A stretch of 50,257 nucleotides of DNA, taken from positions 1 through 50,257 of the forward strand of contig JBEKXL010000017.1 in assembly GCA_049512075.1 (NCBI GenBank). The letters run 5' to 3'. Position 1 is the stretch's first letter; every line of letters begins with the position of its first letter. A program made the position numbers and the translations under genes. This DNA comes from Candidatus Bathyarchaeia archaeon. Lineage in GTDB: Archaea; Thermoproteota; Bathyarchaeia; Bathyarchaeales; Bathycorpusculaceae. Below, piece after piece: positions 113-50,136 of the stretch. Under the pieces are notes generated by a model. The model had not been told where the DNA came from. It made no database searches and saw nothing but the letters and a program-made list of their open reading frames with translations.

Positions 113-629
113 ACCCTTGAAATAGAGTAAAAGCAGCCCGAAGACAATTGCAGGATCCATATTCGTCACGCACTGAAGCGCTCGGTCATTGATGCCAGCG
201 AGGCCCAAGACATATGACTTATGAATTATGAACTTTAATTCGGAGTATGCACATAAATAACGCGTGCTTTCATGGATAACACGTTTGCCTGGCAAGTTTA
301 AGTGATGTTGACGGTTTTCTGGTTCTTCAGGGTCAGCACCTTTCTTTTGGTGACCTGCTGAATTTTCGGGTGTTTTCAGTGTGTATTGGAATAGTGGTTT
401 TTGTTTTGAGGCGCGCGCAGCTTAAGGAAGAGCAAGAAATTTCAGATTCAGGTTCAGACTTTTCCTTATACTACCAATATGTAGTATTGCGTCACGTTTG
501 CTTATTCCGCATACAATTGCTCGTGTACTTCTTTGCCAAATTTTCCGTGGTCTGTCACTTTAAGGATTACAGTCCTTCTGTTTCCTGTAAAATGCAAACA
601 ATGCCAACAAATTGAACATCTGTCCAAAG

Positions 630-983
630 TTACACCACCCATCGATAAACAGTGTTAGTCTGTGTATCTACAACACTGAATTTTGTCTGTGGAAATATCA
701 GCCAAGTATGTGTATTTTGCTGTATTATCTCAAAGTTTGCTTCAGTAGACAACGTAGTACACTTCTCTTCAAAAGCACTCATTCCCAGTGTTACAACGTT
801 ACTGTACGAAACTGAACCCATATGTAACGGATAGTTGTGATCAGCAACGAACTCTTTAAAATCTGAGATTTGTGATTCTCTTGCATTTTCGCTTTCTATA
901 TATGCAACAACCACAATTACAAAGAGAACTATAATTACGATTGCGATTATTAGAAAGATTATTCCGCCGTTCTTTCTTCTCAA
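630..983 (-). CDS. Small single-pass membrane protein, hypothetical
   Basis: Basic N-terminus followed by a long hydrophobic helix; GAGGTG/GAGG Shine-Dalgarno-like sequence upstream; co-oriented with the flotillin gene. Confidence 0.7.
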   Translation of the reverse strand: MRRKNGGIIFLIIAIVIIVLFVIVVVAYIESENARESQISDFKEFVADHNYPLHMGSVSYSNVVTLGMSAFEEKCTTLSTEANFEIIQQNTHTWLIFPQTKFSVVDTQTNTVYRWVV

Positions 984-1027
984 CCTCAGTCACCTCCGCT
1001 GATAATCATAGCGATAAAAATAGGGAT

Positions 1028-1318
1028 TTATGAGCTGCTAGTTAAATCTGCAGGCAACATTTTCATTGGATCTCCACAACGCTCGAACCTTGCAAAGACT
1101 GCTTTTACCTGTTTCATCAAAGCTTGCGCGTCCTGTGGATATATCTTAGGATCGCGTGTCACGTCTATCTGTTTTCTAAGCTCATAGATTCCAAAGAGAG
1201 CTTCTTCCAAAACCTTCTCATTGTTATTAGTTCCAGTTGTCTTGGCGTAGATGCTGAGAAGCGTTTGCGCAAACGGACTGAGCTTCTTTACATCTATTAT
1301 GTCAGGGTTCTCTGTCAT
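1028..1318 (-). CDS. Hypothetical protein
   Basis: 96-aa ORF starting 1 nt after the flotillin stop, an operon-like spacing. Confidence 0.7.
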   Translation of the reverse strand: MTENPDIIDVKKLSPFAQTLLSIYAKTTGTNNNEKVLEEALFGIYELRKQIDVTRDPKIYPQDAQALMKQVKAVFARFERCGDPMKMLPADLTSSS

Positions 1319-1319
1319 C

Positions 1320-2678
1320 TTACTTCGCCTTCTTTGTCTCTTGGTTTGCTTGCTTGACTATATTCTTTGCGAGATTGGCTTTTATTGCTTCTTTAGCTAC
1401 AGAACCTATCGGAAGTGTATCTAGAACTTTAGAAACATCTACTCCTTGTGCTTCAAGCGCCTTTATCATCATACCAATATCTGCACCAACTTCTGCACTC
1501 AGCGGAATACCAAAGATTTGACTTTCTCCACTTTGAACAATGCTAATTTTTGCTACTTTAAGTCCATCGCCAAGAGCCGCCCACTTTGCTATCTGCGATT
1601 GCAACGTTGCATGGATAATTTCTATAGACAAACCTGCATCATTATAGAGTTTCAATGCATTTGCTTGTTTCTCTGTACCAGCAGCTGTCGCAAACAGTTG
1701 TGCTTGATTCACGTCTGCTTGAGCAAAGCCTGTCAGCTTGATTGCTTGAGCGTCACCATCGGCTTTGGTTTTCACTGCATTCGCAGCTCCTTCTGCTGTC
1801 TTGACTACCGCTTGGGCACCTACTTCAGCGGTACCAACATCTAAAGCTCTCCTAGCCTCGACTGACTGTTTATTAGCTTCCATCGTAGCCTTCGAAATAT
1901 CTTGTGCCCTCTCCTGATCTGCGATTCCAATTGCCTTGTCCTTCTCAAGTTGAGCAGTCTTGTAAGCTTGCTCTGCCTTTGCTTTCTCAGTTTCTCTTTC
2001 TTGAAGTGATCTTTGTTCTGATATAGTCGCATCTTTTTCTTGATCTGCTACTTGTTTTCTTGTCTCTGCTTCTATGACCTTTGCTTGTCTTTGCTCTATA
2101 TCTGCTATGACGTGGTATGGATCCAAATCCTTGAAGTGTATAACTTCCAGATCTGCAATTTTGATTCCCCATTCTCCAAGAAGAACTGGCTTGATTTCAT
2201 CTCTAACTGTGGTACTAAATTTGGCTCTGTCTCTCATTATAGATATAACATCCATTTTCATAGACTCGTTTCTAGTAATGGATTCTATGAGATCTTTTAC
2301 GTCTGTAGTCAGAGTTTGAGTGTAATCTCCAGTACCCAATTTTTCTGCGGCTAATTCAGGGTTCTCTATGTTAAGCCATACACGCACGTCACCAAGAAAC
2401 TTTGCCATATCGCTATCCCGTAGAGATATATTTTCTATTTGTAGCTTTACAATTCCCAATGGAAGAATTGTTCTTTTCATCCACAACGGAACATACCAAT
2501 AAGAACTTTTTTCATTTGGTCTGGAAGTGTACAGTTTTCTACCTTTGCCTTGTGTAACAACAACATGCGCTTCCGAGGGTTTTACCACTGTGTATATGAA
2601 GTATACCAATATGACAATGACAGCTATCGCAATGATTACTGTAGGAACTAGTACGAGAAGTATGTCATCTAACAACAT
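1320..2678 (-). CDS. Flotillin-like SPFH/band 7 membrane protein
   Basis: N-terminal TM helix, SPFH domain (VVKPSEAHVVV...WGIKIADLEV), long Ala/Glu-rich coiled coil with AEG/ADG repeats; GGAGG SD upstream. Confidence 0.9.
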   Translation of the reverse strand: MLLDDILLVLVPTVIIAIAVIVILVYFIYTVVKPSEAHVVVTQGKGRKLYTSRPNEKSSYWYVPLWMKRTILPLGIVKLQIENISLRDSDMAKFLGDVRVWLNIENPELAAEKLGTGDYTQTLTTDVKDLIESITRNESMKMDVISIMRDRAKFSTTVRDEIKPVLLGEWGIKIADLEVIHFKDLDPYHVIADIEQRQAKVIEAETRKQVADQEKDATISEQRSLQERETEKAKAEQAYKTAQLEKDKAIGIADQERAQDISKATMEANKQSVEARRALDVGTAEVGAQAVVKTAEGAANAVKTKADGDAQAIKLTGFAQADVNQAQLFATAAGTEKQANALKLYNDAGLSIEIIHATLQSQIAKWAALGDGLKVAKISIVQSGESQIFGIPLSAEVGADIGMMIKALEAQGVDVSKVLDTLPIGSVAKEAIKANLAKNIVKQANQETKKAK

Positions 2679-2788: not shown

Positions 2789-3764
2789 GCGCGCGCGCTC
2801 AGCGAATGCCGAACAGAAACCACACGCAAAATCTACGCTAACAGCGTCCGAATCTTCACGGCATGGTGGCAAAAACCCCTAGAAACCTTCGCAACCTTGG
2901 AACCCCGAGAAATGAGACATTTGGCACTGACTTTTCAAAACGAGGCTTTACAAGGCTGGTGTCCTGGCTGGCGAAAGGAACCGTTGAAACAAAACACCAT
3001 CATCGCAGTCCTCACGGCACTAGGCAGCTTCGCAAGTTACAACGACCAATACCTACGCCTACGCGGAAAACGAGCTCACAACCCTAATCGACCTTTCAAG
3101 TCACGTTTTTACGAATCGGGATTTAACTCGCATGTTCAGCGTAGCCAACATAGAACAAAAAGCCATACTCGCCACTTTTTGCAGTCTCGGCTGGGAAGTC
3201 CAAGCAATCCTACAACTAAAACGCACGTACATAGAAAACCTCATTTACCGAGCCCGTGAAGAAAGGCAGCAGTACATCTATTTCATTCATCAACGAGGCA
3301 AAACCGGAGCCCTGCGCCTGGGCGTGTTGAACCCGCTTGCGATAGAATGGATAGAAGAATTTCTCAAAGCCAGCCCCAAAACCGACAGCCTATTCACATA
3401 CACGACAAAAGAAGGTGTTAATGGCATGTCGAAACACCTGGCCAGAGATGCCCACGTTACAGTAACCGGAAGAGTTCACACGCACCTGCTAAGAAAATGG
3501 GTTATGAGCGGCCTAAGCCGAGCCGGGTTTAACGAGTTTCAAATCAAATTCGTCGTAGGCAAGGCTATTCCCCCAAGCGACATGACATACTTGCAAACGT
3601 TACAGCAGGAAGTTGAAGCACGCTATCCCAAAGCCTTTGAAGAGTGCTTGGATATTAGCGGCAAAAAAGTGGTCGCGGGCTTGAGTGACGAGGACCGAGA
3701 ACTGCTAAGCCTAATCAAGGATCCTGCCGTTAAGAGAGCTTTGCTGAAACTGGTAAATGAATGA
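2789..3764 (+). pseudogene. Tyrosine recombinase/integrase, frameshifted and probably 5'-truncated
   Basis: N-terminal part in ORF 2702-3259 (TRKIYANSVRIF). Catalytic part in ORF 3132-3764 (RGKT, HLLRKW, terminal DMTY); that frame stays open upstream (TLIDLSSHVFTNRDLTRMF), placing a 1-nt shift near 3075-3085. No convincing start upstream of the GCGCGCGCGC at 2789. Confidence 0.8.
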
Positions 3765-3890
3765 TTACGATACCAGATTGGATAATCAAGCGGTTCGCTC
3801 CATAACCTTGATGCAAGCAAAGACTGGCTCGATTGCAGGTTGGCTGAACAAGTAATTAGTCCTTGTTGCGCCCTCTCCGAAACGTGCGCG

Positions 3891-5693
3891 CTAGCTTGGG
3901 AATCGTAGGAATTCGTTGTTGTTTGCGTTGACTATTATGGTTACTGTGTTGCCTATCTCTAGTTTTTCGATTCTGCTGACTGTTGTGAAGTCCAGGTTCT
4001 GTGTGTACACTGCGTAGTCGGTTTGGTTGATTGTCAGGACGTAGATGGTGTTGCCGTTGTTGACGTAGGAGAACCTGTTGGTCAGTGTTCCGGTTATCGT
4101 CGTCTCGTTCGAGGGTTGGACTGCTCCGGCTTCGAATCTGCGTTTTGCTTCTTGAACAAGGGTTGCGCCTTCGTAGCCTTCGCTGGTCATGACGATTGTG
4201 TAGTGGTCCAGGTTTACGGCGTCGACGATTCCGAGTCCGGCCAGTTTGATGGTTTCTTGTGCCGAGGTGGATTCGCCCTGTGCGGTCCTCCAGTATAGTG
4301 GCACGAACCAGGCGTTCTCACCGTTTATCGGGTAGATTAGGGGCATTTCTGCTTCGTAGGCTCCGGTGGTGGGCATTAGAATGTGGGACTCAACGACGTT
4401 CTGTGCCTGCAGGCCGCTCTTGATGTCCAGACCCGTCGTGTCGTAGTACTCTATTCCCGTGTCGGTCGTTTTGAACATTCCCGCCATAGTTTGTGCTTCG
4501 CCGACGAAGTCAACGGGGACCAGCGCGGTTATCTTGTTTGTGTCGGGGTCGACGATCCATCGGACGTCGTCTGAGATTTCGACTCTGTTGGTGGATGCGG
4601 GTATCCAGGCGAAGCCGCCTGCGAAGATGTCGAAGCCGTTTCCTCTTCTGGTACCTCCCCAGGCGTTGATCATTGTTTTGAGCCAGCCTTCGTCGTAGCG
4701 CTGGGTGACCCAGTCTGGCGTCTGGTTCATGGTGTAAAAGTTTTCGACTTGGCCAGCGTCGTTGTAGACGTATACTCCTTTGGGCTGGGCGATGAAGGAC
4801 CATTGTTGAACTTGGGTTGTGGTTAGCACGTATTTCCAGTTGCCATTGTCATCGACTGTCAGGGTGGCTCTGCCATAGGCGTCTGCGGTCGATTGGCTCC
4901 AATAGGCGTTTCCCTGTATGTTTCCTGTCAAGAACGGTGGAAAGTACAGGAGTCCTTCGGCCACTTTGAAGGGTTTGTCGACGATTGAAACGTTAAGTTC
5001 GGGGTCGTTTGCATCGACGATGACCAGGCCCTTGACGCTATTGTCGCCGTACAGGTTCAGCGGGACCATCGTGACAACCCAGACAAGGCGGCCGTTGTAC
5101 AGGGTTATGTGGGAGGAGCCGACTCTTACGCTTCCAAAGTGCGCGGCGCTCCTCAACGCGATGCTTTCCGCAAGTTCCTGGGTTGTCAGTCTCAGCATGT
5201 TGTCGGGGATTTCATGCTGGAACAACGGCGTTCCCGCAGGTTCGAATGTCAGCATCTGGTTGAAGGCACTCGCGTTGTTGACTCTCGACACAGCTTGGGT
5301 TTGCCACAACATCAAGCTCGAAAACACGATTATCACGACCAGCGCAACGGCGGCCAGCCACTTGTACACCACCCTTCCCCTTACTCCCCCAAGCACTGGC
5401 CTATACGTTATCCTGCCGTACTTGACCCGTTCCTCATAGCCGGAAAACCTATAATCGTTAACGTACGCAAACAGCCACTCCACGACTGTAAGGGACAGTT
5501 TAAAGAATATCAGCCACACAACCATGTACACGTCCAGTGTGGCGACCGCGATGGCGACGAACCCGAACAGCGCACCGAACAAGCCGAAGACTAAGTACCG
5601 CCACTTGTTCATTAACCAGCGATCAGTCGTAGGAACAACGAACACTACTATCCACGTCAACCACCACAATAAGGGAAACATCTCTTTCAACAC
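3891..5693 (-). CDS. Membrane-anchored protein with a large extracytoplasmic beta-rich domain, hypothetical
   Basis: 600-aa ORF with about 4 N-terminal TM segments, then a soluble beta-rich region with a possible OB-fold at the C-terminus; GC-rich codon usage. Confidence 0.85.
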   Translation of the reverse strand: MLKEMFPLLWWLTWIVVFVVPTTDRWLMNKWRYLVFGLFGALFGFVAIAVATLDVYMVVWLIFFKLSLTVVEWLFAYVNDYRFSGYEERVKYGRITYRPVLGGVRGRVVYKWLAAVALVVIIVFSSLMLWQTQAVSRVNNASAFNQMLTFEPAGTPLFQHEIPDNMLRLTTQELAESIALRSAAHFGSVRVGSSHITLYNGRLVWVVTMVPLNLYGDNSVKGLVIVDANDPELNVSIVDKPFKVAEGLLYFPPFLTGNIQGNAYWSQSTADAYGRATLTVDDNGNWKYVLTTTQVQQWSFIAQPKGVYVYNDAGQVENFYTMNQTPDWVTQRYDEGWLKTMINAWGGTRRGNGFDIFAGGFAWIPASTNRVEISDDVRWIVDPDTNKITALVPVDFVGEAQTMAGMFKTTDTGIEYYDTTGLDIKSGLQAQNVVESHILMPTTGAYEAEMPLIYPINGENAWFVPLYWRTAQGESTSAQETIKLAGLGIVDAVNLDHYTIVMTSEGYEGATLVQEAKRRFEAGAVQPSNETTITGTLTNRFSYVNNGNTIYVLTINQTDYAVYTQNLDFTTVSRIEKLEIGNTVTIIVNANNNEFLRFPS

Positions 5694-5832
5694 CTCTTCA
5701 TGTTCTCGTTTCCTCAGTCAAGGGGAGTAAGTCGTTCAATATTAATCTGGCCATCTAATAAATACCATGCGAATAGTGGCATGTATGCCTGTTCACAAAT
5801 GGTTCGAGAAATGCACGCGCGCCAATTTCTGA

Positions 5833-6657
5833 TCAGACCAGTGAGAACTTATATGGGCGATTTGTCTTGTCAATCTTGAGAATACCTTTTTGCGCCATCT
5901 TCTCAGTATATTCTCTTACAAGATAGTCTGGCAGACTTGCAGCTTTTGAGATATTTCTAATCGTCGTGTGACCATTGGCAATTAACTTGATTAGAAGATC
6001 CTCACTTAGTTTTTCTTCCACGATTCTTTGCAGCTCTTTTTCTATTGGCGATCTAACTTGGTACTTTGTTCTGAGGTCGATTAGGTTCTGTACAAGTGCA
6101 CTTTCCCAGAGTCTCCCCGAAGCGAGAGATTGGTTCCTGCACTCCGTTTTTATCACTTGCCAGTCCAGACTGGATTCCGCTAGAAGGCGCATGTCATCAA
6201 GATCAGCTTCACGTTCTGTAATCCCTTTGAAAAGGAATATGTCTTCTTTTGAGGCAAGGCTCAAAATCAATTGCCTTTTTGAATAAAACTCAGTTGCTCT
6301 AGATGCCATATTAACCGAGAAGACGAGTGCATTGCAAATAGATCGATTGAATATGTCCCATCTGAAACCGTCTTCGTTTTCCATGATTCTAGATATTTCC
6401 ATTTTCTTATATTGTCTTGAGATTGAGGAATTCTCTAACAGGTGGTATTCAATATTTGCCAACGACTCAACCAAAGTGCCCATATCTTGGTCACTAAGAA
6501 CTACAACGTCAATGTCCTATGTTGCTTCTTTCAGTCCGTAATTAATCAAAGCTAGGCCGCCTATGATGAAAATTTGAGTGTGAACCGCGATTTTTGAAGA
6601 TAATTTATCTAGCTCGTTGATTATGTATTTTCTATCAAAAGATGGCCTATTTGTCAA
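5833..6657 (-). pseudogene. Nucleotidyltransferase (AbiEii/DUF6036-like) with C-terminal wHTH, interrupted by an in-frame TAG
   Basis: Manual translation from TTG 6657: MTNRPSFDRKYIINEL...IFIIGGLALINYGLKEAT*DIDVVV, continuing in frame into ORF 5833-6483. GG..A and T-x-DID are NTase motifs; the stop is at 6517-6519. Confidence 0.8.
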
Positions 6658-8202: not shown

Positions 8203-8491
8203 TTCCTTCTCCTTGTGGATCCTAGCTTACCGTAGTCTGTACCGTTGAATTTTCGCAATGCCCAACCAACTAATGCGAATCAACCTACCACCGTAATAGA
8301 TTTCAGTATTGGGGTAGACCAGCACGCGCTAGAGGAAGGTTTTATTCTGCGTTGATGCTGGGGACGAAGATCAAATGACAGGTGCACTTCATGTAGGTGC
8401 GCTCGTGCCCGAAAAGTGGAACTCAATACTGCTGAACCGAGTGTTCACGTAACATCTGGAACCCTAAACTCATTCATTCAGTTGGCTAGCG

Positions 8492-9268
8492 CTATGTTGC
8501 TGTGACGTTCATGTAGACATCTGCAAGGAAGAGTGTCGAGGGAGTGGGGCCGAAGCTTCCAGGTATGAATGCTTCTATTAGATATGTGCCTGCTTCGTAC
8601 GTGGCGTTCCATAACCAAGGCTGGGCGGAGTTCGTTTGATTCCACACGTACGTTCTCACTAGAGCTTGGCCAGGTGAAACTGAAAAAGTAGTCTCCTCAA
8701 AAAGATAGGGGTTGGACCACACCTTGCGCCCGCTTAGGTCCACGGGACTTATAGCGTAGACAACGACTACGGGGTCTGACGTCGCTGATGTTATTGAGTG
8801 GGACACGAAGCCATAGTTCTCCAAAGTTACCGTAATCAGAACTTTTTCTCCAAGACTGTAAGAAGACTTGTCTGTGGTTAACACAAAGACCCAATTGGCG
8901 CGCGTGAGAGACAATACGAACAAGGCTGCATAAAACGTCAAAGTTACAATTACTAGCAGAGTCAGACCTAGCAATACTTTACGTGTTCGCACCTTTCCAC
9001 TCGCGAAGCAAGAATAAGCGGCAATCCCAGACAGAATTGCTGCAGCAATAAGAACATAGGAAAGCAGTAACAACGAATAGATTAAGATAGAGACAATAAG
9101 AAAGACAGCTAGAATGCATGTCAATATGAGTAACGCAGCGAAAATCGGCGAACGATAACGGATGCCCTCAACCAATAATCCTTCCCTCCTCCACGTCGAC
9201 CATTTCCCAGACTCCCTATCTAGGGTAGAGGGCGTTCTACCCATAATTGTTTTGCGCCTTCGAGCCAC
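8492..9268 (-). CDS. Membrane protein with C-terminal Ig-like (BsuPI-like) domain; true start probably downstream
   Basis: Three TM helices, then TTDKSSYSLGEKVLITVTLEN...WNQ...GTYLIEA, an Ig-fold pattern. Confidence 0.75.
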   Translation of the reverse strand: MARRRKTIMGRTPSTLDRESGKWSTWRREGLLVEGIRYRSPIFAALLILTCILAVFLIVSILIYSLLLLSYVLIAAAILSGIAAYSCFASGKVRTRKVLLGLTLLVIVTLTFYAALFVLSLTRANWVFVLTTDKSSYSLGEKVLITVTLENYGFVSHSITSATSDPVVVVYAISPVDLSGRKVWSNPYLFEETTFSVSPGQALVRTYVWNQTNSAQPWLWNATYEAGTYLIEAFIPGSFGPTPSTLFLADVYMNVTAT

Positions 9269-9319
9269 AGCGCGAGCTCGCGCGCCATTTGAAAACCCGA
9301 TTCGAGCTTAGTTTGGATT

Positions 9320-9898: not shown

Positions 9899-10234
9899 CT
9901 CTTCAACTCCAACAAACTATTGCAGTCCTCATTGACGTTTTCAGGCATATAGCTCTAACCCGCGCGTCATACGTTCATCTTCCTGCCATGCGCAGGAACA
10001 TAAGCTCAGAGTCAAGCAAACCTTAAGCACGACGAAATCCTCCCACAGCGCGCGTTGCCCTGCAACGGCACAAGCGCCTTGGTCACGGGTAGCGCACGCC
10101 AGGATCGCGCGGGTTCGTGAGGCAATGGCTTGACAAACACTTGAGAGGGAGGTCAGTTTGCTCACAGATTTCAAGGCTTGGAATTAGTATCGACACTGCG
10201 CCGTTAACGCGTATAGCGCGCGCTAGGTTTGGGT

Positions 10235-13777: not shown

Positions 13778-14243
13778 ACTTCATACAGTACACTACACTC
13801 ACGCGTGCATTGGCAACGTTGTCTTGGATGTCTTGCTCCTGATTAAACACTTATGAACACAAAATCAATACACAAAAGCAACCCCTCCAAAACCACACTA
13901 CACCCAAAGTAAAACCAATATTAAACCATAAAAGACAGAAAAAGAGGGTTTCCGCCCAAGAGAGACGGAAAGTCTCAATGAGCGCAACACAGGTTCGTTA
14001 CAGTGAAAAAAAGGAAGTTAGGAACACGCATGCGCGCTAAGAGTACGGTACTTGAGTTAATCTCATGATATTCTTTGTCCCAATTTACAGCAGCAAGAAA
14101 GTCTCAAGAGTTCTTGTCAAATCTCCAATTCTATTAAACCTTTTTTGGTACCAAGTGATAGTATAAATAGGTGTAGCACTGAAAGAAACTATAGGTAACC
14201 TTTGGGAGGCTACTTGTTGTTTGCTCAAAAAAGGGGAACTTTA

Positions 14244-15369: not shown

Positions 15370-15586
15370 AAACTCATAGAAGAGGATTGAAATGGCCGGG
15401 TTTAAAGATTGGTTGGAGAAAAGGCGAAAGAGAAAGGCGCTTATCGACGCGCTCGCGCCAGAGATTGCTAGACCAAAACCTATAATTGCCATAATCAGTC
15501 CTACCATTCTTATGGCTAGTCATTCTTTACCAACTCAATGCTGTTCTTGGCTGCATGAACGGAACTCTAAGTGGGAAGCGCGCGCG

Positions 15587-15737
15587 AAATAGCAAAAGCA
15601 TCCATAGTCACGACGCAACAATCTACCGAATAATAGAAAACCTCAAAGCAGCCATGCTAATACAAGACAAAGAAAAAGTCTACAGAATGAACGACCCCAT
15701 GCTCCGAACACTCCTACTAACCTCACAAGCAACTTAA
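15587..15737 (+). pseudogene. C-terminal wHTH fragment resembling archaeal ATPase tails
   Basis: HDATIYRIIENLKAAMLIQ...YRMNDPML; begins at the GCGCGCGCG at 15578. Confidence 0.55.
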
Positions 15738-15801
15738 GGGGTGTAAGAACTTACAGGGGTAAGAAACAGACAAGACCTGTTGCCACTTCCCAGCAGGTCT
15801 T

Positions 15802-16090
15802 GCGCGCGCGTCAAGAGCGTCCTGCGAGTTGACAAGAAATTCAGATCCCACGGACCCGAAGACCAGAGAAAGCAGTATCATAAGCGGCCTGCTGTTGAAG
15901 CTGTTTTTAGCTTCCTCAAAACCCAGCACAGCCTAGCCATGAACAAGGTTAGAGGAGTAAGAAACGTCGCCGTCTACGCTCTCTACAGCATATTCAGCCT
16001 AATCCTAACAAGAGAAGTAGCTGAAAACCTCGGAAGACAAGACAAAACAGTCTCACCAACCTACTTCAACACCTAATTCGGGACAAGGCA
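15802..16090 (+). mobile_element. 3' remnant of a DDE insertion sequence (IS5/IS1182-like) with right terminal repeat
   Basis: YHKRPAVEAVFSFLK...KVRG, a Y-x2-R-x3-E-x6-K pattern; TTCGGGACAAGGCA (16077-16090) is the exact reverse complement of 50137-50150. Confidence 0.8.
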
Positions 16091-16182
16091 GCGCGCTAAA
16101 GTAGCTGATAGGTCTATTACCGTCGCGCGCGTAGTGTTGTCCATACGGGCCTTACACTGCGGGCAATACTATCCCGCGCGGA

Positions 16183-19527: not shown

Positions 19528-20059
19528 TTGAATACCTTCTGTGCCTACCGCTACTGTGAGACATCGAATAGTTACAACAAACATTACACGCGATAAAGCA
19601 ATTATGAAGCTACAATTAATACTCAGAATCGAACAGGAACACATGATGAGAAATCGTGCGAACGCGCCCGAGATTCTTGTCGCGCGCGCTCTAGAATAAC
19701 CCCAAATTTTCTTCTTCTATTAGTCTCAGCGTCCGTTATGGAAGAATTTTCTATCAGTCTTTATGAACCCGCTTCACCCGTCAATTAGCGCGTGCGTTGG
19801 CAAGACCGACTTGACTGGTCGCATAATCTGTCTTTGTTCAGAAGCGTGCGTTTCAATCGTAATCATTCATTCTAGTCTACGATATTGTTTCATAATGGGA
19901 CTACGCGCGAATATCAGTCTGCCTGACGCTACATAGACATAGCACAGCACTGAACGACAAGTAAATACCATAGATGTCGATTCTTGATCAGTATACCTTA
20001 TTATCAACTGGAACAAACACTTTAAATCTCAGCCGTTTGAAAAAGGAAAGAGGGTCAAC

Positions 20060-29324: not shown

Positions 29325-29329
29325 TTCCC

Positions 29330-29344
29330 TTTTTTTCTTTTCTT
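29330..29344 (+). terminator. Archaeal T-tract terminator
   Basis: TTTTTTTCTTTTCTT directly after the cupin stop. Confidence 0.55.
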
Positions 29345-29358
29345 AGCGAGCGCTATCG

Positions 29359-29380
29359 TGGTGGGGTCGCTGGGATTTGA
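29359..29380 (-). other. tRNA 3' fragment with CCA (GGGG-start tRNA such as Pro), att-like scar
   Basis: Minus strand TCAAATCCCAG-CGACCCC-A-CCA; similarity stops inside the T-loop. Confidence 0.7.
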
Positions 29381-29452
29381 CCACGGGAAATTTTTGGTTA
29401 TTATTTCTTCAGCCGAGTACTTTGGCAGTTCGCTATTGGTCTTCGGATAAGC

Positions 29453-33188: not shown

Positions 33189-33594
33189 ATTATCTCTTTT
33201 CTCCCTTTTCTCAATAGACTTCTGACAGTAAAAATCTTGTCAATATTGATATGCACGTGAATGACTTTCGTCTTGCTAACTAGAAAGGCGCGCATGGGTG
33301 TTTCTGGATCCGTTGTTTAGGTGTGATAAAGGCTGAGCAGCGTGTCTTGCGTTGTATAGTTTGTGTGTGCGTGCAACATGTCTAGGCGCGCGCATAGCAG
33401 AGGGACGGTGCAACGAATCTGCACGCAGTGTAAATTGTTCCAGTTCACGTCTTCAAACGAGGATTTCGAGGTCAAGCGCAACCCCAGCATGATAGTCTGA
33501 TGATGTGTCGTTTTTGGATATATATCGAGATTCGAAAAAACTGTTTTATTGAGATTCACGATATGAAACTGTAAGGGCGTAGGATGGCATCTGA

Positions 33595-33831
33595 ATGAAG
33601 AAGAGGATAAAGGTTGAATTGCGAGGCGTTAAGGCTGCCGAAAACATGAAGCTTCGCTGGAAAGCTGCCAGGCAAATCCAACAGGAACTTCTGGAAAAGA
33701 AGCTACTGCAATGCTTCCTGAGTCCAGGTGAAGATGAAGCGTGCATCAAACAATATCCTATGGCCATGCAACCCCTGATGAGGGAATTCATCCGAAAAGC
33801 AGAAGAGCAAATGAGGACTTTCAGAATATAG
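33595..33831 (+). CDS. Hypothetical protein
   Basis: 78-aa ORF with AGGA upstream; no motif recognised. Confidence 0.45.
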   Translation: MKKRIKVELRGVKAAENMKLRWKAARQIQQELLEKKLLQCFLSPGEDEACIKQYPMAMQPLMREFIRKAEEQMRTFRI

Positions 33832-34085
33832 CAGGCAATTTGAACATGGGTTGCTCGTGTAGCAGACATGAACAAAACTCTCGAATTGCCTTAAGTAGAT
33901 TATATCGAGTAGAAGATATGAAATAACCTATTCTTTTCAAGCTGTTTTCCTGCGCTACAGTTTCGACACATTTCTCATAAGTTAGCGCGCGCTGTGACTT
34001 CTGTTTGCTGAACGATGTGCGCTCGCTCTTTTTGATGCAGATGGAGAGTTGCTCAGGGTGGTGGAGGAGGCGGAATTGGAGGATA

Positions 34086-34226
34086 GCGCGCGCGCTCAAA
34101 TTCTCAAAAGCCAAAACCAGCAGAATCCTCGGAGACATGGAAAGCAAAGGATTTATCAAAAGACACAAGAGCGGAAGGGACAAAGTGGTGTCTCTCCAGA
34201 AAGAACCTGAAAAAGCAAGAAGCTAG
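34086..34226 (+). pseudogene. C-terminal wHTH fragment (MarR/DUF7343-like tail)
   Basis: ARALKFSKAKTSRILGDMESKGFIKRHKSGRDKVVSL; begins in GCGCGCGCGC 34086-34095. Confidence 0.7.
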
Positions 34227-41527: not shown

Positions 41528-42790
41528 ATGGAATCACCCGCAAAACCAAAAACGCGCAGTTTACTCACGATTTTGATTGGAACAGCCGTCATATGTCTGC
41601 TTATAGGAGGAATACTGGGCTACGCGATAAGCAGTTTTAACACTTCAAGTCTGATCAGTGGTCTCCAAAGCAACGTGTCAACTCTTGAAAAACAGGTTTC
41701 AGATCTCCAGTCAACGAACAATTCAACCTCAGGAAACGTAACCTACGTAAACTCCACCTACGAAAACACCACCTACGTTCTAGGAGATAACGTCTCACTG
41801 CCCCAGTTATACGAACAGGTCAAGAACTCTGTGGTCGTGGTTCAAGGATTAATAGCGGTATATGGCTTTTTCGGGCAACTCGTAGGCTATGCAGAGGTGC
41901 AAGGATCAGGGTTTGTCTCTAACTTAACGGGACAGTTTGTGATCATCACTAACTACCACGTTGTTGACGGCGCAACCAACATCACCGTGACATTCATAGA
42001 CGGAAACACCTATGTAGCAAACGTTACCGGCTCAGATCCCTACGCAGATCTCGCGGTGCTCTCCACAAGCGCGCCACAGGATGCGTACAACCCACTTGCA
42101 ATTACAAGCTCATCGACGTTGCAAGTCGGCGACCCTGTGCTTGCACTTGGTAATCCTTACGGACTAGCCGGATCAGTGACTTCAGGAATTGTCAGCGCTC
42201 TAGGCAGAACGATTACCGAGAGCACGTCAGGCGGATATGACATAGCCGATTGCATACAGACGACGACGCCCATAAACGCCGGTAACTCGGGAGGACCCCT
42301 TCTGAACTACAAGGGCGAAGTCGTCGGGATAACTACCGCCATCGTTAGCAATTCACAGGGGCTGGGCTTCGCAATTCCTTCGAGTTCGATACTGCGAGAA
42401 ATCGAATCTTTGATCACAAACGGGTCATATAGCAACCATCCTTGGTTAGGAGCATCCGGAACGGACATGTCATTGGGTATTGCGCAGGCGATGAACACAA
42501 ACGTGACCTACGGTTGGCTAATCACTCAGATCACGAGTGGAGGACCAGCGGATAAGGCTGGCCTGCGTGCTGGCACGGCCCAAGTTCAAGTCTCTGGAAC
42601 ATCAGTGAGAGTTGGAGGCGATATCATAACGGCCATTAACGGCGCAAGAATCAGGAACACTGATGATCTCTTAGCTTACTTGGAAGAATATACTCTGCCA
42701 GGTCAGACAATCAGTGTGGCAGTGGTAAGAAGCAACGAGACTCTGACATTGTCGCTCGTGTTGGGAGCCCGACCGCTACCATCAGCGTAG
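41528..42790 (+). CDS. htrA: HtrA/DegP-family membrane-anchored serine protease with PDZ domain
   Basis: TNYHVV, DLAVL and GNSGGP catalytic triad; GGPADKAGL...GDII PDZ. Confidence 0.95.
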   Translation: MESPAKPKTRSLLTILIGTAVICLLIGGILGYAISSFNTSSLISGLQSNVSTLEKQVSDLQSTNNSTSGNVTYVNSTYENTTYVLGDNVSLPQLYEQVKNSVVVVQGLIAVYGFFGQLVGYAEVQGSGFVSNLTGQFVIITNYHVVDGATNITVTFIDGNTYVANVTGSDPYADLAVLSTSAPQDAYNPLAITSSSTLQVGDPVLALGNPYGLAGSVTSGIVSALGRTITESTSGGYDIADCIQTTTPINAGNSGGPLLNYKGEVVGITTAIVSNSQGLGFAIPSSSILREIESLITNGSYSNHPWLGASGTDMSLGIAQAMNTNVTYGWLITQITSGGPADKAGLRAGTAQVQVSGTSVRVGGDIITAINGARIRNTDDLLAYLEEYTLPGQTISVAVVRSNETLTLSLVLGARPLPSA

Positions 42791-45496: not shown

Positions 45497-45629
45497 ACTT
45501 GAGTAAGCGCGCGCTAACAACCAAATAAGTCAAGTCTATCCTGAACGCAAACACAAATCCTATCTTAATGTTCAAATAGGAAATCTTTATACAGTAGTAC
45601 ATTCGTTTGTTATATGAGAGTGACTCTGG

Positions 45630-46771: not shown

Positions 46772-46860
46772 GCGGGGTTGCCCTAGCCTGGTAGGGGGCA
46801 GGCCTGCTAAGTCTGTGGTCAGCAATGGCCGCGTGGGTTCAAATCCCACACCCCGCGCCA
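46772..46860 (+). tRNA. tRNA-Ser(GCT)
   Basis: Acceptor GCGGGGT/ACCCCGC, anticodon arm CAGGC-CTGCTAA-GTCTG, long variable arm, T-arm GTGGG-TTCAAAT-CCCAC, discriminator G, encoded CCA. Confidence 0.95.
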
Positions 46861-46911
46861 ACTAAAACTTCAAATCGGGAATGCCCTTCTTCATGTTCTA
46901 AGGAGAGAACT

Positions 46912-48219
46912 TTGGGAATCTACCGCTACGAAAGGCGCCTCTGGCTGGCCATTGAAGGAAAAGAGGGAATCAAGAAATCAAGGCAGATCATTCCAGGGAA
47001 CAAGAGGAAGCTGCTCGATTATGCTGAATATCTCAAGGCCACCGGAAAGAGCCTTCCACGCCAGGACAAGTTGATGAGGACTCTGAAGATCTTCGCAACT
47101 CTGTTAGGGCCCATATCCTTCAAGGAAGCAACGAAAGAGAACATGGTTCAAGTATTGGCGAAGGCTGAAGACCGCTGGAAGTCTGAGCTATCCCAGAAAG
47201 GCAGGCCTGGACCAGCGTCTGACTACACGCGAAGAGATTTCCAGGAAATAATCAAACAATTCTATGCATGGCTCTTCGATGTTGAGGATCCCCGGCACGA
47301 GGGATATCCGAAACCTGTTAGCTGGATCCATTCCAAGGCTCCAAAACAGAAGCTTAAGGCTTCGGATCTCCTCACTCCTGCAGAAGTCAAGAAGCTCATC
47401 AGCGTCACGCCGGACATGCGACTCAAGGCGCTAATAGCCGTGTGCTACGACTGCGGCTTGAGAGTTGGTGAGGCTCTTCAGATGCATATAGGAGACGTGG
47501 ACCTCCAGGAACAGTATGCAACGTTGACCGTGAGCGGAAAAACAGGACCGCGCGTGGCCTATTCGATTGAATCATTGCCATTGTTGATGCAGTGGCTAGA
47601 TCAGCATCCGGACCGTAGCAATTCTGAAGCTTGGCTTTGGACGGATGACACGGAACCCTTGTCCTATGATAGGGCTCGTTTCAAGCTTCTAGAATGTAGG
47701 CGAAAGGCAAAGATACCCAAGAGAGTATTTTTCCATCTTTTCAGACACAGCTCGGCCACTTCTAACGCACAATTAGGCGAGTCCATGCTGCGCAGCATCT
47801 ACGGCTGGAGCAAAAACAGCGATGAACCGAGCACCTACGTCCATCTCTCCGGAGAGACAGTTAAGAAAGCCTTACTTGAGAAAGCCGGCCTGAAGCAGAA
47901 AGTCCAAGAGGAACCGGCAGTCATCATGTGCCCTCGCTGTGGAAACCCTAACCAACCAAATGCGAGTCTATGCGTAAAATGCAAGGGTGTTTTGAAGATC
48001 CAGGATGCTGTTTCGATGAATGGGCTACTGGAACAGATCACGAAATTGAATGAGAAAATTGAGAGAATGACTCCGGAATTCGCTCGACATGAAGAACTCT
48101 TCAAGATCCTCAGGGAAAAAGGTCTCGTCACGGAAATCGAGGACAAACCGACTTTAGGGTCTGGCCAACTCTACACACCTTTTCGAATTCGCAGAGAGAC
48201 TAAAGACGGACAGAAGTAA
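46912..48219 (+). CDS. Tyrosine integrase with C-terminal zinc ribbon
   Basis: GLRVGE, GKTG, HLFRHS, YGW, TYVHL catalytic motifs; CPRC...CVKC; TTG 46912 preceded by AGGAG. The frame is open back into the tRNA (46825). Confidence 0.93.
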   Translation: MGIYRYERRLWLAIEGKEGIKKSRQIIPGNKRKLLDYAEYLKATGKSLPRQDKLMRTLKIFATLLGPISFKEATKENMVQVLAKAEDRWKSELSQKGRPGPASDYTRRDFQEIIKQFYAWLFDVEDPRHEGYPKPVSWIHSKAPKQKLKASDLLTPAEVKKLISVTPDMRLKALIAVCYDCGLRVGEALQMHIGDVDLQEQYATLTVSGKTGPRVAYSIESLPLLMQWLDQHPDRSNSEAWLWTDDTEPLSYDRARFKLLECRRKAKIPKRVFFHLFRHSSATSNAQLGESMLRSIYGWSKNSDEPSTYVHLSGETVKKALLEKAGLKQKVQEEPAVIMCPRCGNPNQPNASLCVKCKGVLKIQDAVSMNGLLEQITKLNEKIERMTPEFARHEELFKILREKGLVTEIEDKPTLGSGQLYTPFRIRRETKDGQK

Positions 48220-48284: not shown

Positions 48285-48434
48285 TCACTGCACCCTTCTT
48301 TTCTCTGGAAACCGTTTGTGGATCCTCTGTTCGGCTACCTTGGCCGCTGCTCTCAGCATTCTTGCAGCTTCTTCATTGATCCTAGGTCTTGACGGATCCC
48401 TTTTTGAACTCATGTTTCTACCTGCAGACACCAT
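48285..48434 (-). CDS. 49-aa basic microprotein convergent with the integrase
   Basis: Manual translation MVSAGRNMSSKRDPSRPRINEEAARMLRAAAKVAEQRIHKRFPEKRRVQ; TTTAT boxes upstream. Confidence 0.4.
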   Translation of the reverse strand: MVSAGRNMSSKRDPSRPRINEEAARMLRAAAKVAEQRIHKRFPEKRRVQ

Positions 48435-48695
48435 CTTTGGATAAATGCACATAAACCTTCCCCCCCCCCGCGAATTGCAAGTAGCCAGTCTCAGCGAGAT
48501 TCCTCGACGCGCGCGCTACACCAGAAGAGAACCCTGAATACGCAAAGGTGGTTCTGTTAACTCTTAGGCGCTTAAAGAAGTCTGTTAACCATCGGCGCTT
48601 CTGGCGTAAACCAATGCTTCAGCAAACTAATTATGGGGAAACTTCATACTAGAAACTACAAATACACTTGAATTGCAATTATGTGAAGGTATTGG

Positions 48696-49754
48696 ATGTC
48701 GAAGACTAACGTTGAGAAAGCCGTTGAATGGTATCGTGAGAAAAGGGGTATTTTTGAAGCCTTGGCAAAGAGGGTAGAATCGATTATTCACGAAGTACTA
48801 GATGAGAGGAAGATCAACTATTACAGCATTAGTAGCAGGGCTAAGTCTATTGAAAGTTGCGAAGCGAAAGCCTCAAAAGAGAAGTACAAGGACCCGCCTT
48901 CCGAGATTCAAGACATGGCAGGAGTTAGAGTCATCACTTATACTGATGTCGATGCAAAGACTATTTCCAAGATAATCCAAGAGTTATTTGAGATTCAACC
49001 AGAAAATGCCGTTGATAAAACTGAAGAATTGGGGACAAATAGAGTAGGTTATCGTTCTATACACTGTGTTGGAACCCTTGGATCTGAACGAGTCAAGCTA
49101 CCTGAAAACAAAGTATTCAAGGATATGTGGTGTGAGATTCAAGTTAGAACCATTCTACAACATGCGTGGGCCGAGTTTGAACATGACAGAAACTACAAGT
49201 TTAGTGGCGTTCTACCAAAGGATATACAAAGAAGACTTTCGATTGTAGCAGGAAACCTAGAACTTATAGACCGAGAGTTTGATAACATATCAAAGGCTAT
49301 CGATAACTACACTTCAGAAATACGAGGAAAGACAGAATCAGGTGACTTGCGCATACCGATAAATTCCACATCTCTGAGAACATATCTGGAAAATAGACTA
49401 AAGGATGTGGTCGTAGCTGGCTTAACACCAAGCTTTAGAGGAGCTGACAAGGAAATCATTGATGAAATGACCGCTATGGGCATCAACACTATCGAGGACC
49501 TAGATGGTATTATTCCAAAAGACTATATTCAGAAAAAAATTAAATACATGCATTTTGAAGAAGAACAGGGATATACTTTTTCGGGATCTGTGAGAGACTT
49601 TCTCATGATTCACGATATTGATGCTTACTTCAAAAAGGCGTGGAAGGAAAAGTGGCACTTTATGTATAGGGAGGATGCCGCTTTCTTGAAAGAATATGGC
49701 ATAGATTTTGAGGAATATGCGCAGATGCATGATTTGAAATTAGAATGGTTGTGA
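48696..49754 (+). CDS. RelA/SpoT synthetase-domain protein (small alarmone synthetase-like)
   Basis: SRAKS, QDMAGVRV, GYRSIH, EIQVRTILQHAWAEFEH; additional C-terminal domain; no HD hydrolase domain. Confidence 0.92.
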   Translation: MSKTNVEKAVEWYREKRGIFEALAKRVESIIHEVLDERKINYYSISSRAKSIESCEAKASKEKYKDPPSEIQDMAGVRVITYTDVDAKTISKIIQELFEIQPENAVDKTEELGTNRVGYRSIHCVGTLGSERVKLPENKVFKDMWCEIQVRTILQHAWAEFEHDRNYKFSGVLPKDIQRRLSIVAGNLELIDREFDNISKAIDNYTSEIRGKTESGDLRIPINSTSLRTYLENRLKDVVVAGLTPSFRGADKEIIDEMTAMGINTIEDLDGIIPKDYIQKKIKYMHFEEEQGYTFSGSVRDFLMIHDIDAYFKKAWKEKWHFMYREDAAFLKEYGIDFEEYAQMHDLKLEWL

Positions 49755-49832
49755 TTGAAGCTTTGATGCGTATTATTCTAGGCCATCACTGTCCAATCTT
49801 TGCTTATGCCTGAACAAGAATGCCGTTACGTC

Positions 49833-50128
49833 TTAAGGATTTGTCTTAATCTTCTGATACTGGGTTGCTTTCTTGATTAACGACATCCATTCTGCCTTCT
49901 CAGTTTCAACATTTGCTTTTTGTGCAGGAGTTTTACCATTCAACGCCATGTGGGGTCTTATGAAGTTGTAGTAGATTCTCAGGCCATCCATCATTGTCTG
50001 TGCTGTTTCAACATCATCGAGCCCTCTCATAACCTTGTTTCTTTGTCTTATTGTTCCATGTAGTCTTTCAACCATGTTGTTGTTTGAACGGTCTCTAATG
50101 TTCGGAATCCTAACGTGCTGAGTTCTCG
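49833..50128 (-). mobile_element. 3' remnant of an IS6-like/rve-type DDE transposase
   Basis: NNNMVERLHGTIRQRNKVMRGL...YYNFIRPHMALNGKTPA; cut at GCGCGCGC 50129-50136. Confidence 0.8.
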
Positions 50129-50136
50129 GCGCGCGC

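What the first reader, a model, noticed from the sequence alone, without database searches (positions are those of the whole stretch)
411..50136. Highly iterated intergenic GCGCGC / TAGCGCGCGCTA palindrome bracketing nearly every transcription unit
Seen: exact GCGCGC-containing runs at about 411, 2789, 3886, 5817, 9280, 10048, 10216, 14032, 15578, 15802, 16091, 16124, 19681, 24053, 27770, 28225, 28256, 28651, 28703, 28832, 28931, 33288, 33386, 33985, 34086, 45507, 46399, 48508 and 50129. All lie outside intact genes; I noticed only one inside a CDS (8898). One-transition variants that keep R/Y alternation (GCACGC, GCGTGC) fill other boundaries, e.g. 8322, 15297, 19788, 21447, 22141, 24581, 28742, 42790, 43403. 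The fullest form is the perfect palindrome TAGCGCGCGCTA (10214-10225). Several copies abut stop codons and use the TAG as their flank (3891, 27768, 42788). They flank housekeeping units (por) as well as accessory ones. Inference: a lineage-wide cis element, such as a recombination/insertion hotspot, a chromatin or termination protein site, or a Z-DNA-prone boundary. It is loosely analogous to cyanobacterial HIP1 but excluded from coding DNA. I do not recognise it as a described element.
Basis: partly seen in the sequence, partly recalled or inferred. Interest (0 to 1): 0.85.

Follow-up and report, generated by a model that had tools for sequence, protein, structure and literature searches.

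The report
GC-palindrome scars of archaeal jumping genes
The repeated GCGCGC palindrome is real and extremely enriched between genes, but it looks like the end-piece and leftover scar of a family of jumping genes that marks where DNA was inserted or lost, not a control signal of the host.

Summary
The window has 31 alternating-GC runs (50 GCGCGC hits vs 9.1±3.3 by chance). Genome-wide (a Bathyarchaeia MAG) the runs are 9.4x denser between genes than within them, capped at 10 nt, consensus tA(GC)3-5Ta.

It is not a conserved host signal:
- It occurs in all spacer types.
- It turns over faster than random intergenic 8-mers (43% vs 57% kept in a 94%-identical sister genome).
- Its abundance is patchy, even within genera.

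GCGCGC is the outermost hexamer at both ends of an IS5/IS1182-like insertion sequence and its MITEs, found in several genera. Free-standing copies sit at rearrangement joints. 168 of 438 homology-block ends between the two sister genomes lie within 5 nt of a run (about 5% expected). In 18 clean indels an 8-13 nt GC filler replaces 89-4000 bp of ordinary DNA; the long form was ancestral in 2 of 2 testable cases.

Best reading (about 0.5): transposon ends plus excision/joining scars.

Unresolved:
- whether the hexamer is the element's tip or a duplicated target;
- why some scar-rich genomes (G107) show no such element, which leaves room for an unknown GC-filling end-joining process.

The parts
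411..418 (.). (GC)4 run, intergenic, near window edge
2789..2798 (.). (GC)5 run, TA on left, in a divergent spacer
3886..3891 (.). (GC)3 run overlapping the stop codon of 3891..5693(-)
5816..5822 (.). 7-nt run, 10 nt past the stop of 5833..6483(-)
8322..8329 (.). GCACGCGC, a one-transition variant; far joint of the 5.7-kb segment 8322-14037
8898..8904 (.). 7-nt run inside ORF 8492..9268(-)
9279..9285 (.). 7-nt run between two minus-strand genes
10048..10054 (.). 7-nt run, intergenic
10216..10223 (.). (GC)4 inside the perfect palindrome TAGCGCGCGCTA, 11 nt past the stop of the histidine-kinase gene
14007..14037 (-). end of an IS/MITE: hexamer 14032-14037 followed (reading leftwards) by ATGCGTGTTCCTAACTTCC; near joint of the 5.7-kb segment
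8322..14037 (.). 5.7-kb segment (two small genes and the PAS histidine kinase) absent from sister genome G002, which has a single GCGCGC at the spot
15578..15586 (.). 9-nt run in a weak small ORF
15666..16090 (+). remnant of the IS transposase gene (53% identical to residues 216-348, 2 stops) and its right inverted repeat ...TTCGGGACAAGGCA
15802..15810 (.). 9-nt run inside the transposase remnant
16091..16096 (.). terminal GCGCGC hexamer of the IS remnant, followed by TA
16124..16131 (.). (CG)4 run, intergenic
19681..19689 (.). 9-nt run 36 nt upstream of the start of 16183..19644(-)
24053..24059 (.). 7-nt run between a wHTH gene and the por cluster
27770..27777 (.). (GC)4 overlapping the TAG stop of the last por gene; homology with G002, G004 and G001 stops exactly at 27769
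27770..29453 (.). variable region with 7 runs; G002 has a 906-bp unrelated stretch with no run here
27793..28104 (.). multi-copy module, found at other loci in G001, G002, G004 and G021; in other contexts it is followed at once by a GC run
28225..28232 (.). (GC)4 run, TA on left
28255..28263 (.). 9-nt run
28651..28656 (.). (GC)3 run 2 nt past the stop of 28298..28648
28703..28711 (.). 9-nt run
28832..28838 (.). 7-nt run; one contig of run X5 has 28 extra letters put in behind 28835
28930..28938 (.). 9-nt run
33288..33293 (.). (GC)3 run with a weak inverted-repeat-like flank
33386..33393 (.). (GC)4 run; joint of the segment 33387-34095
33387..34095 (.). 707-bp segment bounded by runs on both sides; G002 has 4.6 kb of other DNA between the same flanks
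33985..33992 (.). (GC)4 run, TA on left
34086..34095 (.). (GC)5 run; other joint of the segment 33387-34095
42069..42074 (.).
45507..45514 (.). (GC)4 run 10 nt past a stop codon
46399..46406 (.). (CG)4 run, intergenic
48508..48516 (.). 9-nt run, TA on right
50129..50257 (+). left end of a MITE running off the window: GCGCGCGC then TGCCTTGTCCCGAAATTGGTGTAAAATGG...

Best explanation
The motif is a by-product of mobile DNA, not a host signal.

Shown: GCGCGC is the invariant outermost hexamer at both ends of an IS5/IS1182-like insertion-sequence superfamily (DDE_Tnp_1 plus DUF772 transposase) and of its many MITEs. It is usually preceded by (T)A.

Shown: free-standing copies, A(GC)3-5T, sit at joints where DNA was inserted, lost or replaced.

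Inferred mechanism: these copies are scars left when such elements, often together with neighbouring DNA, are cut out and the chromosome is resealed.
- Each broken flank keeps a short self-complementary GC tail. The tail is either the element's tip or a duplicated GCGCGC target.
- Two such tails can pair in register or shifted by 2 or 4 nt.
- After fill-in this gives (GC)3, (GC)4 or (GC)5 and nothing longer.
- Scars pile up where they do no harm, that is between genes and just after stop codons. They then decay by point mutation.
For: Element ends.
- 111 of 2448 run flanks form one repeat family. Of these, 97 end in exactly GCGCGC, 64 have TA outside it and 88 have A.
- There are 31 inverted pairs under 500 bp.
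- The parent elements encode DDE_Tnp_1 plus DUF772 proteins.
- All 7 full copies examined, in 5 genomes of 2 genera, carry a GCGCGC-type hexamer (GCACGC at one end) next to the inverted repeat at every end on the fetched stretch, 13 ends; the second end of the G004 copy was not picked up.
- Relatives with only 30-44% identical transposases do so too.

Joints between sister genomes.
- 168 of 438 homology-block ends between G000 and G002 lie within 5 nt of a run in either genome. Only 2.7% of 5000 random intergenic positions do so per genome.
- Of 75 clean indels, 34 have a run at a joint. In 18 of those, only the short allele has it, as an 8-13 nt filler.
- The long allele is ancestral in 2 of 2 informative cases out of 3 tried.
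- About 8 pure insertions of 8-13 nt containing the run were seen.
- A MITE's own internal deletion joint carries GCGCGC.

Co-occurrence. All 19 of 151 family genomes that have a transposase at least 70% identical hold 3 or more copies of AGCGCGCGCT (median 40). None of the 85 genomes with 0-2 copies has one.

Length and neutrality.
- Intergenic run lengths 6, 7, 8, 9, 10, 11, 12 nt occur 264, 124, 234, 148, 87, 2, 1 times.
- AGCGCT, which would be (GC)2, is not enriched.
- Runs are kept less well than control 8-mers.
Against: - Some scar-rich genomes show no such element. G107 has 104 copies but only 3 inverted-repeat ends, 0 of 168 run flanks in any repeat family (200 kb sampled), and no relevant transposase. 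G096 has 53 copies and 0 ends; G057 has 40 and 0. In all, 12 of 25 genomes with 20 or more copies lack a close transposase. IS are often unassembled in MAGs, but this asymmetry also fits the rival models.
- (GC)4, not the most stable pairing product (GC)3, is the commonest free-standing form: 196 vs 170.
- TA flanks are rarer at free-standing runs (28-33% of sides) than at element ends (52%).
- I saw no target duplication outside the hexamers (by eye).
- No excision event was seen directly. Contigs of four other runs showed no joint at a run.
- Two-sided filled/empty comparisons were very few.
- Transposases of this kind are not known to me to leave such footprints (recalled).
Confidence: 0.5

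Rival explanations
1. Target model. The free-standing GC palindromes arise independently of the insertion sequences. The IS inserts specifically into GCGCGC and duplicates it as a 6-bp target repeat, much as IS5 relatives use short palindromic targets (recalled). The hexamers at element ends are then host DNA.
For: - No other target duplication is visible outside the hexamers.
- Inside the hexamers the element of the window's type begins TG and ends CA.
- The asymmetry fits: every genome with the IS has runs, while many run-rich genomes lack the IS.
- The outer flank is A in 76% of element ends and in 71-75% of free-standing runs.
- At window 14037 and at three other places the sister copy has a lone run at or near the element's end.
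Against: - A clean MITE insertion in G002 (L109:5005-5353) sits where G000 has no GC run, and G003 and G004 have no element.
- In about 10 of about 18 one-sided comparisons the copy without the element has no run at the site (read by eye).
- Element ends are (GC)3 in 99 of 122 cases, whereas free-standing runs are mostly longer.
- The model does not explain how runs appear as fillers at fresh deletion joints.
Confidence: 0.2
2. An IS-independent joining process. An unknown, patchily inherited enzyme system seals double-strand breaks with a short alternating-GC filler. Every joint it makes (deletions, insertions of foreign DNA, IS copies) carries the mark.
For: - Fillers sit between breakpoints that show no GC microhomology in the ancestral allele.
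- Insertions show no target duplication and lose a few target letters.
- Arbitrary gene-bearing segments are bounded by runs.
- G107 is run-rich without any IS or MITE.
- Ku is present in G000, G002 and G004. It is found in 10 of 25 run-rich genomes vs 9 of 85 run-poor ones.
Against: - The hexamer at element ends is uniform and is conserved across IS relatives only 30% identical, which points to the element itself.
- TA is enriched outside it.
- Ku is neither necessary nor sufficient: G021, G107 and G085 lack it, while 9 run-poor genomes have it.
- No candidate enzyme was identified.
Confidence: 0.2
3. A functional host cis element: a protein-binding, termination, chromatin-boundary or Z-DNA site kept by selection.
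For: - Strong exclusion from coding DNA.
- A mild pile-up just after stop codons and a dearth within 30 nt upstream of starts.
- Alternating GC is the classic Z-prone sequence (established knowledge).
Against: - Present in all spacer types.
- Kept less well than control 8-mers: 43% vs 57%.
- 456 of 684 G002 runs lie outside or at the edge of conserved blocks.
- About 30-fold count differences within genera.
- Transversion variants are also enriched.
Confidence: 0.05
4. HIP1-like origin. A methyltransferase together with biased mismatch repair steadily converts near-matches into the palindrome.
For: - It is a hyper-abundant GC-rich palindrome.
- 126 of 150 unshared runs inside aligned blocks differ by substitutions only.
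- The HIP model is in print (PMC4390886; abstract and passages read).
Against: - No C5 cytosine methylase in G000 (99.8% complete) or G021, and no Vsr.
- No enrichment in coding DNA, unlike HIP1.
- Fillers at deletion joints cannot arise by base conversion.
- Other methylase classes were not tested.
Confidence: 0.03

Closest known systems
IS5 / IS1182-type insertion sequences and their MITEs
   Same: - DDE_Tnp_1 plus DUF772 transposase of about 330-350 aa in an element of about 1.1 kb.
- Terminal inverted repeats.
- Many short non-coding derivatives with the same ends.
   Different: - Scores are far below NCBIfam's family cut-offs: 85.8 vs 270 bits for IS1182, 69 vs 140 for IS5_4.
- Both ends carry an invariant GCGCGC.
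- No ordinary target duplication was seen.
- Hundreds of free-standing end-like palindromes accompany the elements.
Transposon excision footprints and imprecise excision (Tc1/mariner, P element; recalled from general knowledge, no paper read)
   Same: - Short palindromic remnants made of both element tips.
- Sometimes a flanking TA is kept.
- Often accompanied by loss of neighbouring DNA.
   Different: - As far as I recall, footprints are described mainly in eukaryotes, with their end-joining repair.
- Here they would number about 700 in a 2.7-Mb archaeal genome, and excision itself was not observed.
- mPing (PIF/Harbinger, distant IS5 kin) is reported to excise precisely. That rests on my recall; of PMC2836001 only the search listing and the start of the abstract were seen.
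HIP1 (GCGATCGC) of cyanobacteria
   Same: A GC-rich palindrome, the most abundant octamer of its genome, restricted to certain lineages.
   Different: - HIP1 is linked to cognate methylases (abstract and passages of PMC4390886), is described as evolutionarily conserved (start of the abstract of PMC13756078), and, by my recall, is abundant inside genes too; of PMC5861425 only the start of the abstract was seen.
- Here coding DNA is not enriched, no C5 methylase was found, and sites turn over quickly.
REP/BIME-type intergenic palindromes of bacteria (recalled)
   Same: Intergenic, highly iterated, often just after stop codons, and tied to a transposase-like enzyme.
   Different: REPs are 20-40 nt imperfect hairpins mobilised as units. 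Here the unit is 8-12 nt with no conserved flank.

Membership tests
IS5/IS1182-type insertion sequence | DDE transposase of the DDE_Tnp_1 type | tested here: met
   PF01609 at E 5e-12 to 4e-24 and PF05598 in 3 of 3 copies tested
IS5/IS1182-type insertion sequence | reaches NCBIfam's curated family cut-off | tested here: not met
   Best scores are 85.8-143 bits vs a cut-off of 270 (IS1182) and 50-104 vs 140 (IS5_4). It is a distant or undescribed group.
IS5/IS1182-type insertion sequence | terminal inverted repeats | tested here: met
   GCGCGC TGGCTTGTCCCTAAATT ... AAAGGGACAAGGCA GCGCGC at 13 ends of the 7 copies (GCACGC at one; second end of the G004 copy not picked up)
IS5/IS1182-type insertion sequence | short target-site duplication | tested here: inconclusive
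   No repeat was seen outside the hexamers. TA lies outside 64 of 111 ends. The hexamer itself could be the duplication.
MITE | short, non-coding, multi-copy, with the ends of a parent IS | tested here: met
   31 inverted pairs of 125-500 bp; 82 matches to the inverted-repeat pattern in G000
Transposon excision footprint | made of the tips of both element ends, in inverted order | tested here: met
   (GC)3-5 equals 3-5 nt of each GCGCGC tip; lengths are capped at 10 nt
Transposon excision footprint | same site occupied by the element in a relative, or excision seen | tested here: inconclusive
   A few one-sided cases only: G000 C3:150016 vs an IS end in G002, and window 14037 vs a lone run in G002. 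No excision joint appeared in contigs of 4 runs.
Transposon excision footprint | cleavage that leaves element letters on the flank | not testable with these tools
   needs a biochemical assay
HIP1-type iterated palindrome | hyper-abundant inside genes as well | tested here: not met
   0.168 runs/kb in coding DNA vs 1.58/kb in intergenic DNA
HIP1-type iterated palindrome | cognate DNA methyltransferase present | tested here: inconclusive
   PF00145 was not found in G000 or G021. N4/N6 methylases were not searched.
HIP1-type iterated palindrome | sites conserved between relatives | tested here: not met
   49 of 114 intergenic runs kept vs 57% of control 8-mers
Terminator or promoter element | fixed position relative to gene ends | tested here: not met
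   Found in all three spacer types with a broad distance distribution
Z-DNA boundary with Z-alpha reader | Z-alpha domain protein in the genome | tested here: inconclusive
   No hit in 5 genomes, but the control genomes were silent too

The most novel reading that the evidence does not exclude
These archaea, or an unrecognised mobile agent in them, possess a break-sealing process that stitches DNA ends together with a short alternating-GC palindrome. Every insertion, deletion or gene-cassette swap would then carry a readable 'GC stitch'. The insertion sequences would have merely adopted or targeted that stitch. The strongest hint is run-rich genomes such as G107, which have no detectable IS or MITE.
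Probability: 0.2. Interest if true: 0.85.

Novelty: new variant of a known kind. Interest (0 to 1): 0.62.

Why it matters
If the reading holds, about 1200 short palindromes in a 2.7-Mb genome are a readable log of past DNA breakage and joining.
- About 38% of the places where two sister species stop being alignable carry the mark.
- That would make genome flux in uncultured Bathyarchaeia directly mappable from sequence.
- It would be an unusually clear case of transposon scars in a prokaryote.
- It suggests a way for a cut-and-paste element to leave a self-sealing donor site.

It also warns annotators that the most striking intergenic motif of these genomes is probably not regulatory. If the rarer reading is right, it points to an unknown repair or recombination activity.

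Tried and rejected
- Searching both flanks of 26-31 MITEs for empty or filled sites in the sister genome found 0 sites, and later 1 uninformative site. MITE neighbourhoods are themselves not conserved.
- Laying contigs of 4 other runs on 14401-34400 gave no joint at a run and no excision product. It only showed that the junctions are reproduced elsewhere and that 27793-28104 and 19844-21563 are multi-copy.
- One of the three outgroup tests was uninformative.
- Run spacing has no sharp period.
- Closely spaced run pairs show no longer palindromic footprints.
- No sequence is conserved beyond 2 nt either side of free-standing runs, so the run is not part of a larger REP-like unit.
- The z-alpha search had silent controls.
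- Ku presence tracks run abundance only weakly.
- Paper searches for GCGCGC with archaea and intergenic, for Bathyarchaeota with IS/MITE, and for excision footprint with archaea found nothing on this motif.
- The scan's earlier notes held nothing.
- I did not scan promoters or terminators, fold any protein, or test N4/N6 methylases.
- Gene coordinates come from my own crude caller, so coding/intergenic counts are approximate.
- The 70% identity threshold for a 'close' transposase was chosen after seeing the table.

Full report
**Observation.**

The window (contig C17 of genome G000) belongs to a Bathyarchaeia MAG of 2.73 Mb and 47.5% G+C. The lineage is named by the record titles of the closest por loci. 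GCGCGC occurs 50 times, counting overlapping matches, which merge into 31 runs. Shuffles give 9.1±3.3 and never reach 50.

Genome-wide:
- GCGCGC is the most over-represented hexamer against an order-4 Markov model.
- GCGCGCGC is the commonest intergenic octamer, 1032 vs 7.9 expected.
- With a crude ORF-based gene caller of my own, runs are 9.4 times denser between genes than within them: 860 in 546 kb vs 367 in 2179 kb.
- No other dinucleotide repeat is enriched.

The claim 'nearly every transcription unit' is overstated: 21-31% of spacers hold a run.

**Anatomy.**

- Intergenic run lengths stop abruptly at 10 nt. Lengths 6, 7, 8, 9, 10, 11, 12 nt occur 264, 124, 234, 148, 87, 2, 1 times. This is not microsatellite slippage.
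- The base before a (GC)4-5 run is A in 69-71% of cases and the base after is T in 70-78%, with a weaker T/A one step further out.
- Nothing beyond that is conserved.
- The consensus is tA(GC)3-5Ta.

**Not a conserved host signal.**

- Runs occur in divergent, tandem and convergent spacers (1.33, 1.68, 1.97 per kb). There is only a mild excess just after stops and a dearth within about 30 nt upstream of starts.
- In blocks aligned with G002, a sister genome 94% identical, 49 of 114 intergenic runs are kept exactly (43%), against 57% of control 8-mers. In coding DNA the figures are 64% vs 68%.
- Among 151 genomes of the same family, counts of AGCGCGCGCT range from 0 to 115. They differ up to about 30-fold within genera: one genus has 10, 104, 3 and 21; another has 9, 7, 92 and 74.
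- One-letter variants of either kind are enriched: transitions 10.4x, transversions 5.8x. This looks like decay, not a kept purine/pyrimidine alternation.
- No C5 methylase and no Vsr were found. The z-alpha search was uninformative.

**Link to mobile elements.**

- Clustering of the 70-nt flanks of all runs gave one large family: 111 of 2448 flanks, with 203 flanks in any family.
- The family members are the ends of an insertion sequence of about 1.1 kb and its MITEs. There are 31 inverted pairs of 125-500 bp.
- The run at these ends is exactly GCGCGC in 97 of 111 cases, followed by (A)TGCnTGTyCCtAAAtT. It is preceded by TA in 64 cases and by A in 88.
- The elements encode DDE_Tnp_1 plus DUF772 transposases. 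These score far below NCBIfam's IS5 and IS1182 cut-offs.
- Seven full copies in five genomes of two genera all carry a GCGCGC-type hexamer (GCACGC at one end) at every end on the fetched stretch, 13 ends; the second end of the G004 copy was not picked up. I saw no further direct repeat.
- Relatives with 30-44% identical transposases (G002:C7, G021:C8, G044) have GCGCGC followed by a related inverted repeat.
- In the window, 15666-16096 is a broken copy, 14007-14037 is an element end, and 50129 onwards is a MITE end.

**Runs mark rearrangement joints.**

I fetched 1.485 Mb of G002.
- Of 438 ends of homology blocks, 168 lie within 5 nt of a run in one or both genomes (93 in G002, 97 in G000, 22 in both). 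Of 5000 random intergenic positions, 2.7% do so.
- 456 of 684 G002 runs lie outside or at the edge of the blocks, which cover 64% of the DNA.
- Among 163 collinear indel events, 75 are clean (one allele at most 15 nt, the other at least 30 nt). Of these, 41 have no run near a joint, 18 have a run only in the short allele, 7 only in the long allele, and 9 in both.

The 18 short-allele cases are striking. Between 89 and about 4000 bp of ordinary, often coding, DNA in one genome is replaced in the other by an 8-13 nt filler. The filler is 0-3 letters, then a GC run, then 0-3 letters, often with TA on one side.

For two such cases the outgroup shows that the long allele is ancestral. In one, G004 holds the whole 1381-nt region colinearly. 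In the other, G004 and G021 span the left joint. A third test was uninformative.

About 8 pure insertions of 8-13 nt holding the run were also seen. One case is an exact split of GCGC|GCGC by 575 bp.

In the window:
- Homology with G002, G004 and G001 ends exactly at 27769, where the run overlapping the por stop begins.
- 33387-34095 is bounded by runs and is replaced by 4.6 kb in G002.
- The 5.7-kb stretch 8322-14037, which includes a histidine-kinase gene, is an indel bounded by GCACGCGC and GCGCGC. G002 has a single GCGCGC at the spot.

**Co-occurrence.**

- Nineteen of the 151 genomes have a hit at least 70% identical to the transposase. This threshold was chosen after seeing the data. All 19 hold 3 or more copies of AGCGCGCGCT, with a median of 40.
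- None of the 85 genomes with 0-2 copies has such a hit (Fisher 3e-8; relatives are not independent).
- The reverse does not hold. 12 of 25 genomes with 20 or more copies lack it.
- G107 (104 copies), G096 (53) and G057 (40) have 3, 0 and 0 matches to the inverted-repeat pattern.
- In a 200-kb sample of G107, the 84 runs have the usual length spectrum and A flank, but 0 of 168 flanks belong to any repeat family.
- G107's only DDE_Tnp_1 hit lies on an AT-rich contig without runs.

**Explanation.**

What is shown:
- The hexamer belongs to the ends of this IS/MITE superfamily.
- Free-standing runs are fast-turning marks of insertion, deletion and replacement joints.

What I infer is that the free-standing runs are excision or joining scars of these elements.
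- Two flanks, each keeping a GCGCGC tail, can pair in register or shifted by 2 or 4 nt.
- This gives (GC)3, (GC)4 or (GC)5 and nothing longer.
- That matches the hard cap at 10 nt and the lack of enrichment of AGCGCT.
- Loss of neighbouring DNA would correspond to imprecise excision.

Against this reading:
- (GC)4 rather than (GC)3 is the commonest free-standing form.
- TA is rarer beside free-standing runs than beside element ends.
- No excision was observed directly.
- Run-rich genomes without the element exist.

**Rivals.**

Two rivals remain live.
- The IS may target pre-existing GCGCGC and duplicate it. This is favoured by the missing target repeat and by the asymmetry of co-occurrence. 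It is opposed by a clean MITE insertion at a site with no run in G000, G003 or G004, by about 10 of about 18 one-sided comparisons, and by the fillers at fresh deletions.
- An IS-independent joining activity may add GC fillers. This is favoured by G107 and by joints without microhomology. Ku is present in this genus but tracks abundance only weakly: 10 of 25 run-rich vs 9 of 85 run-poor genomes.

A regulatory, chromatin or Z-DNA role and a HIP1-like methylation origin are poorly supported. An assembly artefact is excluded by independent assemblies from four other studies.

**Comparison and novelty.**

IS, MITEs and excision footprints are known kinds. A prokaryotic genome whose dominant intergenic word is a transposon-end palindrome, marking more than a third of the synteny breaks with its sister species, is something I could not find described. 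Searches found nothing on it. In PMC13343696 only term passages were read, and none mention Bathyarchaeia or footprints. In PMC4390886 the abstract and passages were read. Supplements were not consulted.

I rate it a new variant of a known kind. It is of real interest for archaeal genome dynamics, with an open mechanistic question.

Noticed in passing
window 46772-48219: A tRNA-Ser(GCT) gene (46772-46860) is followed directly by a tyrosine-integrase ORF (46825..48219, Phage_integrase E 2e-18). This is the usual signature of the edge of an integrated element.
   Followed up: no
window 19844-21563: A stretch with small genes, including a PIN-domain gene (20796..21446), has contig depth up to 1400 in run X7 where its flanks have 1-4. 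It differs there by many letters, so it is a mobile or multi-organism module with sharp edges at 19844 and 21563.
   Followed up: partly
window 10235-13777 and 16183-19644: Two very large hybrid sensor kinases (1180 and 1153 aa), each with a receiver domain, 5-6 PAS domains and an HATPase domain. One of them lies inside the 5.7-kb indel segment.
   Followed up: no
window 29453-33188: A HerA/DUF87 plus Zot-like ATPase (623 aa) overlaps a 630-aa protein with no Pfam match. The pair is conserved next to por in G002, G004, G001 and G021.
   Followed up: no
G000:C16:6054-6590: A Ku gene, uncommon in archaea as far as I recall, is present here and in 26 of 151 genomes of the family.
   Followed up: partly
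window 28835: One contig of run X5 carries 28 extra letters directly behind a GC run. They look like a tandem copy of the following sequence.
   Followed up: no
window 48696-49754: An archaeal protein with a RelA/SpoT nucleotidyltransferase domain (E 2e-20).
   Followed up: no
L200 (G107:C100:342-3055): This contig is very AT-rich in a 51% G+C genome and carries the genome's only DDE_Tnp_1 hit. It may be a foreign or mis-binned contig.
   Followed up: no
L109:5005-5353 and L001:1538-1654: MITEs formed by internal deletion of the IS carry GCGCGC exactly at the internal deletion joint.
   Followed up: partly
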